A stretch of DNA of 64,000 nt, from the UHGV virus genome UHGV-0167633; one strand, given 5' to 3'. The DNA is from a virus. The first letter of the stretch is position 1. Every line of letters starts with the position of its first letter. Below, piece after piece: positions 53,001 to 56,000 of this stretch. Made by a program: the position numbers.

Positions 53001-56000
53001 GGATAATGCATCAGAGCCTCTTGCTTATGCTTACAAAGAGCTTACGCCTGAGATTATGCGCAACCATTTAGCTGTATTCGAGCGATATGGAATAGCCCCA
53101 AACGATAGCTCTACCACAATTCAGGCACTGCGAATCGCGCTGGATGGCATAGAGCGGAGCGACGCCATGCTTCATGGTGCCGAACCTGTAAGCCAAACTT
53201 ACAAGTTGAACCAGCTATCGGGCAACTCTCCGGCAACTCCGGATGGTTGGATAAGCTGTAGTGAGCGAATGCCGAATACCAAAACAGCCGTTCTTGTTGC
53301 CGTGGAGTTTGACAGGAAAGGTGACTGGCGAATGAAATGGGCTACTTACATCCCCGGGCATCCTGACGCTAATGATGGGTGGATAATTCCTGGTGCGTCG
53401 TGGAAACCGTCACACTGGATGCCGCTACCAGAACCGCCGCAGGAGGTGAATCAATGAGCTGGCCTGAAGCATTCACCACGGTAGGAATTGTGATGGCGGC
53501 AGCACTGGGTTTGTATTCAATTTGTCGCTGGTGGTAACGATGGGAAAAATAACTTTTGTAGTCGAATTTGAGGATGGCAAAGAGCCACCTGTTAGCGCCA
53601 ATCTTGATGTTGCTGGTGGCAGGCTGGTTTCGGTTCTATTTGGTGATTACCGCGACGACTTCTTTCAGCCTGAAGAAGTTGATGTAGTGCGAGAAGCATT
53701 AAACGAGCTAAGTGTTGATAACGATGATGCTCATGCGGAAATCATCAAAAAAATGGAACTGCTAACTCACTAAATTATCAATTATGGTGCTATCACCTAC
53801 GACACCGAGAGAAAATTTATAATGTCAAAAGTAAATGTTTTGATTTTTTCAGCAATTGTTGGCTTTGGTTTTACTGCCGGAGTGCAGATTTATATTGCGT
53901 GGGAAAAAATCATCAACTACGCATGGAGTTGTTTTATTAAGTGAGGTAAGTATGTGGAGAGGTAATAGTCATGGCAAAAGCCAGATGATACTTACCGAAT
54001 ATAAGCTAGACCACAAAACCAATAAATCACGCTCAGTATATTTGCTCCGGCACAATAGCCGCGTAAGAAATACCGTGCTGGAACAAAATCTGACAGTTGA
54101 AATGGATAATTACGGTGGATTCAAGCCAACAATTTCGCTTGATGATTTTCCTCGTGGTTTAAGCGAAAGAGAAGCAATGCTGAAATTAGCAGAATGGCTA
54201 CAAAGATTAAGCATTGCTATTGAAGATAACTGGTCTGAACCTTAAATTTATATGATGACACTAAAACATTTTCTTGACCGCCCATTATGGGCGGCAGCCG
54301 CAGGCTATGACTTTAATTATATGGATTGCATGTCTTATACTGCCAATGCATACGACCATTCGTTCAGCCTGCTGTTTAATTCTTTAAGAATATTGCCGGA
54401 AACAGAAGTTGGAGAGCTTCATTTATGGATATTGGGCTTTATCGCGGCTGTCGTTGGTATTGCTGTATGGCCTTTTATTTTCTGGCTGGTGGCTGTTGTA
54501 GTGTGGTTTAAGTGCAAGACATACCGGAGAAAGTATTTCTTAGGTGATGGAATGACCGATATTGCCAAAATGAACATTGAAAAATGGACTAAGGAATGTG
54601 AAAAGAAATGGCGCAAAAAGAAATGACTACTCTAACGACAGCATACTTACAGCAATTGGTATTTTTTGCAGGCGAGGCTACTTGTCATCCTGACGCAAAC
54701 TATTTATTGGAATTTGAGAGGTTAGCGTCACCCGGTATCGTTCTGGAACTGGCCCAACAGGTGCTGGCCTTGAGACAAAAAGAGCAACATGAAAGTAATA
54801 CGTGTAGATTGAATTTTGAGCAGTGGCTGGAACAGCAACGCGGAAAAATCGATGTGGACTGTGGTTGTGTGTCCACTGAAACATTCATGCACTGGCTGCG
54901 GGTAGCTTACGAGGCTGGCAACTATCCGGATATTCCGGATAGTTCGGTGCCAGCGCCCGGAAAGGGCGTCACCGGTGAACGTATCCGCATTAAGCCGCAT
55001 GTTTATCGCGAACTGGTTAACCGTCTCCACGATACAGCGATCAAGTGTGCTGGCACTCAGCAATTACGAGAAAGAATTAGCCGTGTTTTGGGCGACGTTA
55101 TTACGCCATATCATCATAAACAAGCCGAGAAAAGCGGTCTGGAAAGGTGTCATCTTGAGGCAGCATTAAACATTAAGCCGGGGCATACGCTTGGCATTAT
55201 TGATGCACTGTTGGTTCATAAGATGGCCAGGGCTTTATTGTCGTTGGTAGGGGGCAATGACAACTAGGAAAAAATCGCATTACTGGTGGCAAAGCCATAA
55301 CTACTGATACAATATTTCTAGGTTAAAGATCTGGCATTAGGTAGAGATAGCATGTTTCTTCATATCAATCCCGATTGGGCATCAGCTATTGCGGCATTTG
55401 GGTCAGCAATAGCTGCTTTTATTAGTTTGCGCACAAGTAAAAAGCTTGGATTATTCGATAAGGAAAAATTTTATAGTGAAGCATTGATAAACTTTGCTGA
55501 TAGGGCAAATAAAATAGCAACAGGAAAAGCTGGATCAGACTGGGATGTTAATGACGCAAGTAATATAATTCTTTCACTAAATGCCGCAAAAGAAACTATT
55601 GAAAGTGCGCCAAAACCTATTCGAGAGCAACTAAAACAATATTACAAACATAATCTTTGCCATGAGATCATAACCGAATTAGAGGCTCACTCTCCCCCAG
55701 ATTCAGTAATTGTAAGAGAACCATCAGAGTATGAAGGCAAGATCATGGGATTGTGGGATGAGATTAAAATATTTCTGGGTTATACAGTGGTATCAGAAGC
55801 AGACCTTGAAGATTAAAGTTTGGTGTGACCACATCATTTCATCAATGATGCCCGAAGTGGGGAGTTTGACGATTGTCCGGTGATTTAAGCTGCAAAGTGC
55901 TGGTGCTTTATGCTTGTGAAGTTTATAATTGTGTACACATAACGAGTACACGAGGTGTTTATGCAATCCATTAACTTCCGTACCGCACGCGGCAACCTTA

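What the first reader, a model, noticed from the sequence alone, without database searches (positions are those of the whole stretch)
53780..55820. AT-rich membrane-protein cargo immediately upstream of phd-doc
About 2 kb of low-GC DNA encodes a possible 39-aa hydrophobic peptide, a 98-aa protein, a 2-TM protein with a lysine-rich tail and a 154-aa N-terminally anchored protein, where I would expect a UmuD-like gene (humD) in canonical P1 — none is seen. Small membrane proteins in AT-rich islands next to an addiction module are typical of superinfection-exclusion, abortive-infection or toxin-like accessory genes.
Basis: partly seen in the sequence, partly recalled or inferred. Interest (0 to 1): 0.4.

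Follow-up and report, generated by a model that had tools for sequence, protein, structure and literature searches.

The report
Swappable accessory genes beside P1 phd-doc
This stretch is the right-hand end of an already described hypervariable accessory region of P1-like phage-plasmids, made of three separately exchanged gene modules of unknown function, one of which (a rare membrane-anchored protein gene) has replaced the usual hot-lxr-humD genes; it is ordinary phage mosaicism, not a recognisable defence or toxin system.

Summary
The ORFs are real and the DNA is low-GC, in the lowest 2-4% of same-size windows. humD is absent apart from its last 17 codons.

This is not one cargo island. It is three independently exchanged modules inside published variable region 8 (pmgT..humD) of P1-like phage-plasmids:
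- 53451-53945, holding the 40-aa one-TM peptide A.
- 53946-55248, holding B (N15 gp44-like), C (membrane protein) and D. This module occurs in about 45% of E. coli P1-like elements.
- 55249-55818, a 570-bp, 37.5% GC cassette with ORF E. It replaces pmgV-upfMNO-hot-lxr-humD and occurs in about 2% of those elements.

All five ORFs belong to PHROG families of unknown function. Their relatives sit in the early accessory (ea/nin) regions of lambdoid and N15-like phages. Pfam, NCBIfam, PADLOC, Rfam, PDB sequence searches and fold searches gave no informative match.

A-D lie in a tightly packed operon behind the conserved C1-repressed PpmgT promoter. That points to early lytic expression, not lysogen-expressed exclusion. 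Only E has a possible promoter of its own.

Accessory status is supported. A superinfection-exclusion, abortive-infection or toxin role is untested and unsupported. Interest is low.

The parts
48527..48543 (+). C1 operator OpmgT (ATTGCTCTAATAAATAT), overlapping the PpmgT promoter. It heads the roughly 6.7-kb co-directional gene array that runs through ORF D.
   Evidence: One mismatch to the C1 operator consensus, at the position homologous to P1 OpmgT.
49419..54906 (+). 5.5-kb block of lambdoid ea/exo-xis-like genes (DUF1382, two Ead/Ea22, DUF551 and others) that P1 lacks. ORFs A-C and the 5' half of D are its right end.
   Evidence: P1 coordinates are contiguous across this block. Pfam hits.
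53451..53945 (+). Module 1: a 77-aa ORF (53540-53773, phrog_3876) plus ORF A. RCS47 carries eaa and an ASCH-domain gene here instead.
   Evidence: Breakpoints against RCS47. Found in 191 of 5426 E. coli genomes.
53822..53944 (+). ORF A: 40-aa peptide with one TM-like segment (residues 7-25). Its stop codon overlaps the ribosome-binding site of B.
   Evidence: phrog_5525, 40 of 40 positions, E = 1e-24. Hydropathy. 50% identical homologues lie next to eaa/ea22 in lambdoid phages. Sequence read.
53946..55248 (+). Module 2: ORFs B, C and D, shared with RCS47, SJ46 and many other P1-like elements.
   Evidence: Found in 266 of 5426 E. coli genomes.
53952..54245 (+). ORF B: 97-aa soluble protein, homologous to N15 gp44. 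The predicted fold is four beta strands followed by a C-terminal helix.
   Evidence: phrog_1258, E = 2e-49. 56% identical to N15 gp44 and 66% to the phiKO2 homologue. Model pLDDT 80.9. pN/pS 0.06-0.29.
54252..54626 (+). ORF C: 124-aa membrane protein. Conserved N-terminal 55 aa, hydrophobic stretch 56-86 with a central W-P, and a basic tail containing CEKKW.
   Evidence: phrog_2638, E = 5e-63. Alignment A2. Homologues 51-56% identical sit in N15-like phage-plasmids before Dam. pN/pS about 0.15.
54608..55267 (+). ORF D: 219 aa, or 214 aa if it starts at the ATGA overlap at 54623. The C-terminal half is PmgU; the N-terminal half resembles lambdoid ea-type proteins.
   Evidence: tblastn with PmgU: 89% over 108 aa. 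phrog_21459, phrog_60 and phrog_924. pN/pS about 0.1.
55249..55818 (+). Module 3: a 570-bp replacement cassette, GC 0.375. It occupies the place of the P1 pmgU 3' end, pmgV, upfM/N/O, hot, lxr and most of humD (2.4 kb in P1).
   Evidence: Identical breakpoints against P1, RCS47 and p2RM9154-C1. Found in 10 of 5426 E. coli genomes.
55286..55313 (+). Sigma-70-like promoter candidate (GTGGCA, 16-nt spacer, TACAAT, with an extended -10 TG) ahead of ORF E.
   Evidence: Consensus scan only, 9 of 12 positions. Such sites are not enriched in this region compared with shuffled sequence.
55352..55816 (+). ORF E: 154-aa protein with an N-terminal membrane anchor, a cytoplasmic helical bundle and an acidic C-terminal DLxD motif.
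   Evidence: phrog_1779, E = 5e-63. The family has 21 representatives at 50% identity. Alignment A1. Model pLDDT 87.7. Anchor conserved across the family.
55819..55888 (+). Remnant of the humD 3' end: the last 17 codons (55835-55885) plus the stop codon.
   Evidence: tblastn, 94% identity over 17 aa. DNA homology to P1 resumes at 55819.
55961..56562 (+). phd (55961-56182) and doc (56182-56562): the conserved right border of the variable region. Pphd is retained at about 55899-55927.

Best explanation
The segment is the right-hand end of hypervariable region 8 (pmgT..humD) of a P1-like phage-plasmid. It is a mosaic of three independently exchanged accessory modules, not one island tied to phd-doc.

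Modules 1 and 2 (ORFs A, B, C, D):
- They are the tail of a roughly 6.7-kb array of small co-directional genes related to lambdoid ea/exo-xis/nin genes and N15 early genes.
- The array follows the C1-repressed PpmgT promoter, and its genes are packed with overlapping stops and starts.
- Inferred: they are silent in the lysogen and are made as one early transcript after induction or infection.
- Inferred: A and C insert into the inner membrane, while B and D stay cytoplasmic. They act as dispensable early host-modulating functions, as the lambda exo-xis and nin genes do.

Module 3 (ORF E cassette):
- It is a 570-bp low-GC cassette from an unidentified donor that replaced pmgV-upfMNO-hot-lxr-humD by recombination.
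- Shown: the only function-grounded consequence is loss of the LexA-controlled UmuD' analogue HumD, of the theta homologue Hot, and of Lxr.
- Inferred: E is anchored in the inner membrane by its N-terminus with a cytoplasmic helical domain. It is transcribed by read-through from the operon and perhaps from its own promoter.
- Its biochemical role is unknown.

I put about 0.85 on the structural and evolutionary account. I put about 0.45 on early-lytic host modulation rather than lysogen-expressed immunity. The overall confidence given (0.6) is a compromise between the two.
For: Location and mosaic structure:
- P1 backbone genes flank the segment.
- Breakpoints against P1, RCS47, CP063718 and p2RM9154-C1 define the three modules.
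- p2RM9154-C1 has A-C 100% identical but keeps pmgV..humD.
- Among 5426 complete E. coli genomes, the pdcB-lpa backbone is in 590, the B-C module in 266, the A module in 191 and the E cassette in 10.

Published context:
- pmgT..humD is listed as variable region 8, with low GC noted in the hot-lxr area (PMC9603915).
- The P1 genes here are non-essential (PMC10695390).

The genes are real and exchanged separately:
- Each has a full-length PHROG match.
- pN/pS is 0.06-0.3 for B, C and D.
- Homologues of each gene occur separately in other phage types: A beside eaa/ea22 in lambdoid phages; B as N15 gp44 and in phiKO2, P22-like and HK-type phages; C in N15-like elements before Dam; E in lambdoid nin and early-left accessory regions, often near theta, DUF551 or Ea22 genes.

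Operon context:
- The C1 operator lies at 48527.
- No convincing terminator lies between it and D.
- The A stop overlaps the B ribosome-binding site, and C and D overlap.

E cassette:
- A complete E-allele plasmid has no hot, lxr or humD.
- The cassette is 99.4% identical between carriers while its flanks are 93-97%, which points to recent spread by recombination.
Against: - No expression data exist. Internal promoters within the array cannot be excluded, and one promoter-like site lies just ahead of E.
- No homologue of any of the five genes has a tested function, so 'host modulation' rests on analogy with lambda exo-xis and nin genes, not on evidence.
- E-family genes have consistently lower GC than their host phages. 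One sits near a PD-lambda-1 defence gene. Both facts would also fit a moron or defence role.
- ORF A has too few substitutions to show purifying selection (pN/pS about 0.5 from 9 differences).
Confidence: 0.6

Rival explanations
1. One reading: one or more of the membrane proteins (A, C, E) is a lysogen-expressed superinfection-exclusion, abortive-infection or toxin-like gene carried as cargo next to the addiction module.
For: - A, C and E have membrane-type hydrophobic segments.
- The E cassette is low-GC, stands alone and has a promoter-like site.
- E-family genes have lower GC than their host phages.
- One E homologue lies in a nin region that also carries PD-lambda-1.
- C gives a weak, sub-threshold match to the membrane toxin family CptA (13.7 bits against a cut-off of 27.3; 3 of 6 family members match).
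Against: - PADLOC gives no hit for any window protein and only inconsistent single-member noise for the E family.
- Pfam and NCBIfam have no Sie, Abi, Rex, Imm or holin match.
- A-D lie behind a C1-repressed promoter with no clear promoter of their own.
- In L009-L011 the E homologue starts directly after an intrinsic terminator, which suggests antitermination-dependent (lytic) expression.
- No partner gene is conserved with A, C or E, and no antisense RNA family was found.
- The modules are exchanged independently of phd-doc.
Confidence: 0.2
2. The genes have virion or morphogenesis roles, as the 'pmg' (putative morphogenetic) label on PmgU and on the RCS47 homologue of D suggests.
For: The C-terminal half of D is 89% identical to P1 PmgU. 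RCS47 annotates its D homologue as a 'putative morphogenetic protein'.
Against: - pmgT, pmgU and pmgV are non-essential for P1 plaque formation (PMC10695390).
- The B-C-D module is absent from more than half of E. coli P1-like elements.
- Homologues of A, B, C and E lie in early or nin regions of other phages, not in structural gene clusters.
Confidence: 0.05
3. Some of the ORFs, especially the 40-aa ORF A, are not expressed genes but chance ORFs or decaying remnants in AT-rich junk DNA.
For: - A is very short and its pN/pS is uninformative.
- PGAP does not annotate A in pS51_2 or p2RM9154-C1.
- A frameshifted variant of C exists in the databases (P0007).
Against: - A has a full-length PHROG family, and 50% identical homologues occur in unrelated lambdoid phages.
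- A has a ribosome-binding site, and its stop overlaps the ribosome-binding site of B.
- B, C and D are under purifying selection.
- The E family is conserved at 30-40% identity, with invariant residues.
Confidence: 0.05

Closest known systems
[quoted passage not shown]
   Same: Same position, between pap/pmgT and phd-doc. Low GC, and gene content that differs between otherwise conserved P1-like elements.
   Different: The allele here carries a 5.5-kb lambdoid-type gene block that P1 lacks. It also has ORF E in place of pmgV..humD, a combination found in only about 2% of E. coli P1-like elements. I did not find this combination described in the papers read.
Lambda-type exo-xis (ea) and nin-region accessory genes (Ea22, DUF551, DUF1382, theta homologues)
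   Same: Small, densely packed, non-essential early genes exchanged as single-gene modules. The upstream neighbours here are Ead/Ea22, DUF551 and DUF1382 proteins. Homologues of A and E lie in such regions.
   Different: Here the genes sit on a P1-type plasmid prophage under C1 control, not under lambda N or Q control. None of A-E is one of the characterised lambda genes.
N15 gp44 and its phiKO2 homologue (function unknown)
   Same: B is 56-66% identical over its full length and lies in an early operon in both settings.
   Different: The neighbouring genes differ. The 79-aa protein that precedes the C homologue in N15-like contigs is not a B homologue.
CptA/YgfX membrane toxin (Pfam PF07254)
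   Same: A small inner-membrane protein with a hydrophobic hairpin-like segment followed by a basic cytoplasmic region.
   Different: The match is below the family cut-off (13.7 against 27.3 bits) and covers mainly hydrophobic residues. There is no CptB/SdhE-like partner gene, and C has a conserved 55-aa N-terminal domain that CptA lacks.
P1 HumD (UmuD' analogue), Hot (theta homologue) and Lxr
   Same: They occupy the same slot immediately upstream of phd in P1, P7, D6 and RCS47.
   Different: E shares no sequence similarity with any of them. It has no LexA box and is a membrane-anchored helical protein, not an S24 peptidase.

Membership tests
P1-like phage-plasmid variable region 8 (pmgT..humD) | Lies between pap/pmgT and phd-doc on a P1-type backbone | tested here: met
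   tblastn with P1 proteins: pmgS and pap at 97-99%, the first 232 aa of PmgT at 99.6%, phd at 98.6%, doc at 96%, pdcB at 95% and lpa at 99%, all flanking the segment. DNA breakpoints.
P1-like phage-plasmid variable region 8 (pmgT..humD) | Gene content differs between otherwise conserved P1-like elements | tested here: met
   P1, RCS47, p2RM9154-C1 and pS51_2 each have different content here. Module frequencies are 10, 191 and 266 against 590 backbone-positive genomes.
HumD/UmuD (S24 peptidase) upstream of phd | An intact S24-type UmuD-like ORF of about 129 aa | tested here: not met
   Only the last 17 codons remain, at 55835-55885. None is found anywhere in the complete E-allele plasmid pS51_2.
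PmgU (P1 gp096) | Sequence identity over the full PmgU length | tested here: met
   The C-terminal 108 aa of ORF D are 89% identical to P1 PmgU, which is 111 aa. D adds about 100 N-terminal residues. The phrog_60 match spans the P1 breakpoint, so P1 pmgU looks like the truncated form.
PHROG families 5525, 1258, 2638 and 1779 (all 'unknown function') | Full-length profile match | tested here: met
   A: 40 of 40 positions, E = 1e-24. B: 97 of 97, E = 2e-49. C: 120 of 120, E = 5e-63. E: 169 of 169, E = 5e-63.
Known anti-phage defence systems (PADLOC-DB 2.0) | Match to any defence protein model | tested here: not met
   No hit at E <= 1 for A-E. Across 21 E-family members only scattered matches appeared, each model hit by one or two members, best E = 0.002.
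CptA/YgfX membrane toxin (PF07254) | Score at or above the Pfam gathering threshold (27.3 bits) | tested here: not met
   13.7 bits, E = 0.07 for C. The best among family members is E = 0.026.
CptA/YgfX membrane toxin (PF07254) | Adjacent CptB/SdhE-type antitoxin gene | tested here: not met
   The neighbours B and D have no such domain. The genes next to C homologues differ between settings.
Type I toxin-antitoxin (small hydrophobic toxin plus antisense RNA) | Hydrophobic peptide shorter than 60 aa | tested here: met
   ORF A is 40 aa, with KD19 of 1.83 over residues 7-25.
Type I toxin-antitoxin (small hydrophobic toxin plus antisense RNA) | Own promoter and a cis-encoded antisense RNA | tested here: inconclusive
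   No Rfam family was found in 48000-60500. One weak promoter-like site on the minus strand at 53977-53949 faces into A, but promoter-like sites are fewer here than in shuffled sequence. A is translationally coupled to B within an operon.
Phage moron (autonomous promoter-gene-terminator unit of deviant composition) | Base composition distinct from the flanks | tested here: met
   The E cassette has GC 0.375 against a window mean of 0.474, in the lowest 2.2% of 570-bp windows. E homologues have GC 0.37-0.42 in phages of GC 0.48-0.56.
Phage moron (autonomous promoter-gene-terminator unit of deviant composition) | Own promoter and terminator | tested here: inconclusive
   A promoter-like site lies at 55286-55313, found by consensus scan only. 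No terminator follows E.
Superinfection-exclusion proteins (Sim, SieA/B, Imm, RexB and similar) | Sequence or profile similarity to a known exclusion family | tested here: not met
   No Pfam or NCBIfam match to any such family for A, C or E.
Superinfection-exclusion proteins (Sim, SieA/B, Imm, RexB and similar) | Expression in the lysogen and a block to incoming phage | not testable with these tools
   This needs transcript mapping and phage-challenge assays.

The most novel reading that the evidence does not exclude
ORF E belongs to a small, uncharacterised family: 21 clusters at 50% identity among 1.8 billion proteins. Its members are inner-membrane-anchored cytoplasmic helical proteins with a conserved acidic C-terminal DLxD tail. 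The family could be a new single-gene phage-encoded function, either a membrane-level exclusion or defence factor or a modulator of host replication or repair. Its members often lie next to theta homologues, and here E has displaced the hot-lxr-humD module. That would give this P1 lineage a different lysogenic-conversion phenotype.
Probability: 0.15. Interest if true: 0.45.

Novelty: new member of a known kind. Interest (0 to 1): 0.2.

Why it matters
The practical value is modest.
- It shows that the 'missing humD' is a clean allelic replacement in a known recombination hot spot. Carriers of this allele lack the phage-borne UmuD' analogue, the theta homologue and Lxr, which could alter SOS mutagenesis in their hosts.
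- It flags five conserved orphan families, especially the sparse E family, as candidates for functional screens of temperate-phage accessory genes.
- It suggests that P1's own pmgT and pmgU are deletion products, which matters for anyone who treats them as bona fide 'morphogenetic' genes.

Tried and rejected
Searches that gave nothing above threshold:
- Pfam, NCBIfam and PADLOC on all five proteins and on family alignments. Only sub-threshold noise appeared: Ribosomal_L12, 60KD_IMP, CydH and Cpta_toxin.
- Rfam on 48000-60500 gave only a sub-threshold GcvB match outside the segment.
- PDB sequence-profile searches with the E, B and C family alignments found nothing at E < 0.6.

Structure route:
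- The afdb50 library was unavailable.

Ideas tested and dropped:
- A conserved partner gene for E or C. None was found, apart from a theta homologue within one to four genes of the E homologue in four of the nine full-length contexts examined (L007, L009-L011).
- A LexA box near E. None was found.
- Repeats at the E cassette junctions. There is only a 5-6-bp TTGGT-like microhomology, plus an 18-nt internal two-copy repeat that is probably chance.
- Similarity of E to any of the P1 genes it replaced. None was found.

Literature: a search for the phages PhiR26_1 and PhiR5_1, which carry E homologues, returned only unrelated papers.
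Full report
**What the window is**

tblastn with P1 proteins places pmgS, pap and the first 232 aa of PmgT at 46.7-49.4 kb. It places phd, doc, pdcA, pdcB and lpa at 55.96-58.65 kb, all at 95-99.6% identity. Megablast finds the segment on about 1,280 plasmids, mostly from E. coli, and on P1-like phages such as RCS47, SJ46 and vB_EcoM-813R1. The window is therefore a P1-like phage-plasmid. The finding lies immediately left of phd-doc.

**Checking the observation**

- A, 53822-53944, 40 aa.
- B, 53952-54245, 97 aa.
- C, 54252-54626, 124 aa.
- E, 55352-55816, 154 aa.

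Hydropathy gives the following:
- A has one TM-like segment.
- C has a single 31-residue hydrophobic stretch with a conserved central Trp-Pro. It could be one kinked TM or a tight hairpin. C ends in a Lys-rich tail.
- E has a borderline Ala-rich N-terminal segment.
- At family level that segment is clearly hydrophobic in 19 of 21 representatives. Neutral or negative charge precedes it and positive charge follows it, which fits an N-out, C-in anchor.

D splits the low-GC DNA into two blocks of GC 0.39 and 0.375. The window mean is 0.474, and both blocks are in the lowest 2-4% of same-size windows.

All five ORFs match PHROG families end to end, at E = 1e-24 to 1e-77. B, C and D show pN/pS of 0.06-0.3 against their alleles in other plasmids. 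They are real genes.

humD is absent. Only its last 17 codons remain, at 55835-55885. The complete E-allele plasmid pS51_2 has no humD, hot, lxr, pmgV or upfM-O anywhere.

**Anatomy relative to other P1-like elements**

Pairwise BLAST against P1, RCS47, CP063718 and p2RM9154-C1 gives sharp breakpoints:
- Window 49419-54906 (5.5 kb) sits at a point where P1 coordinates are contiguous.
- Window 54907-55248 corresponds to pmgU.
- Window 55249-55818 (570 bp, ORF E) replaces 2.4 kb of P1: the pmgU end, pmgV, upfM/N/O, hot, lxr and most of humD.
- Homology resumes at 55819, inside the humD 3' end.
- RCS47 lacks 53451-53945 (a 77-aa ORF plus A) and carries eaa and an ASCH-domain gene there instead. 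It shares 53946-55248 (B, C, D).
- p2RM9154-C1 has A, B and C 100% identical but keeps pmgV...humD.

So the finding spans three independently exchanged modules.

The table gives how often each module occurs among 5426 complete E. coli genomes.

| Segment | Genomes |
|---|---|
| pdcB-lpa backbone | 590 |
| B-C module | 266 |
| A module | 191 |
| E cassette | 10 |

The E cassette is 99.4% identical between carriers, while the flanking genes differ by 3-7%. That suggests recent spread by recombination.

**Published context**

A comparison of the 54 P1-like phage-plasmids that represent the P1 subgroup, out of 77 in RefSeq, lists pmgT, pmgU, pmgV, upfM-O, hot, lxr and humD as one of eight highly variable regions. 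It also associates the variable regions, hot-lxr among them, with low GC (PMC9603915). [quoted passage not shown] Phage-plasmids of the P1 group are known to exchange many genes with phages and plasmids (PMC10879196).

**What the genes are related to**

None has a characterised relative.
- **A** has 50% identical homologues next to eaa/ea22 genes of lambdoid phages.
- **B** is N15 gp44 (56%) and a phiKO2 homologue (66%). It is common in prophages of Klebsiella, Salmonella, Citrobacter and related genera.
- **C** has 51-56% identical homologues in N15-like phage-plasmids, between an RNase T-type exonuclease gene and dam.
- **D** is a lambdoid ea-type N-terminal half joined to PmgU.
- **E** belongs to a sparse family: 21 representatives at 50% identity among 1.8 billion proteins.
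- Members of the E family sit as single genes in the nin or early-left accessory regions of lambdoid prophages. Theta homologues, DUF551 or Ea22 genes are often nearby. In phage PhiR26_1 an E homologue lies near a PD-lambda-1 defence gene.
- No partner gene is conserved with C or E.

The genes upstream of A in the window are DUF1382, two Ead/Ea22 proteins and a DUF551 protein. The whole block is thus a lambdoid-type early accessory array transplanted onto a P1 backbone.

**Searches for function**

- Pfam, NCBIfam and PADLOC gave nothing above threshold for the window proteins or for family members.
- The only recurring weak hit is C against the membrane toxin family CptA. It scores 13.7 bits against a cut-off of 27.3, covers mostly hydrophobic residues, and there is no antitoxin-like neighbour.
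- Rfam found no RNA family in the segment.
- PDB profile searches were empty.
- The model of E (pLDDT 87.7) has one long N-terminal helix and a helical bundle. It gave only generic helical matches.

**Expression context (inference)**

- The C1 operator OpmgT is conserved at 48527, with one mismatch.
- From there to the end of D the genes are co-directional and tightly packed.
- The stop codon of A overlaps the GAGG ribosome-binding site of B. C and D overlap through an ATGA.
- No convincing terminator or promoter lies in between.
- Together these features indicate one C1-repressed early transcript: silent in the lysogen, and expressed on induction or infection.
- E follows an 84-nt spacer that holds a promoter-like site (GTGGCA, 16 nt, TACAAT, with TG). 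The site comes from a consensus scan only.
- E has no LexA box and no terminator before Pphd.
- In three related prophage loci the E homologue starts directly after an intrinsic terminator. That fits antitermination-dependent, lytic expression.

**Conclusion**

The best-supported account is ordinary phage mosaicism in a known variable region.
- Modules 1 and 2 are dispensable early accessory genes. Two of them are membrane proteins.
- Module 3 is a rare low-GC replacement that removed hot, lxr and humD and installed an orphan membrane-anchored protein.
- The proposal that these are exclusion, Abi or toxin genes linked to the addiction module has no positive evidence. The operon context argues against it for A-D. 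It remains possible mainly for E, at about 0.15-0.2.
- The one function-grounded consequence is that this lineage lacks the phage-borne UmuD' analogue, the theta homologue and Lxr.

**Novelty and interest**

The sequences are present in hundreds of public assemblies, all annotated as hypothetical proteins. The region's variability is already published. This is a new, undescribed allele of a known kind of region, and its interest is low.

Noticed in passing
window 58657-59988: A 1,332-bp insertion relative to P1, RCS47, CP063718 and p2RM9154-C1, lying exactly between the lpa stop codon and the pacA late-promoter region. It carries a 392-aa ORF on the minus strand (58690-59871) with HTH_OrfB_IS605, OrfB_IS605 and Cas12f1-like TNB domains, that is, a TnpB. 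No terminal inverted repeats were found. It looks like a TnpB-only element of the IS200/IS605 family.
   Followed up: partly
window 56553-56802: A 250-bp insertion between doc and pdcA that all four comparison elements lack. P1 positions 6686-6733 match both window 56505-56552 and 56803-56850, so the doc 3' end is duplicated. A new 91-aa ORF (56582-56857, no Pfam hit) ends in a tail resembling the Doc C-terminus.
   Followed up: partly
window 48723-49448 and 54907-55267, compared with P1 locus L003 2584-3653: Reference P1 pmgT (309 aa) looks like a deletion fusion. PmgT residues 1-232 match window 48723-49418. Its last 77 residues are read from an alternative frame over the PmgU-coding part of ORF D. 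The 5.5 kb in between is missing from P1 at a single contiguous point. P1 pmgU would then be the truncated 3' half of a D-like gene, because the phrog_60 match spans the breakpoint.
   Followed up: partly
window 55819-56552: The phd-doc segment to the right of the E cassette is only 93.6% identical to P1, RCS47 and p2RM9154-C1. The segment to the left (53401-55248) is 99.4% identical to p2RM9154-C1. The E cassette therefore marks a recombination boundary between two backbone lineages.
   Followed up: partly
window 55308-55325 and 55765-55782: An 18-nt direct repeat within the E cassette (TACAATATTTCTAGGTTA and TAAAATATTTCTGGGTTA, 89% identical). The first copy overlaps the candidate -10 element and the second lies near the 3' end of ORF E. 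It is probably chance.
   Followed up: no
window 4001-4551, 7951-10601 and 21801-22551: Three other low-GC islands (below 0.40 in 500-bp windows) elsewhere in the window. They may correspond to other published variable regions of P1-like elements.
   Followed up: no
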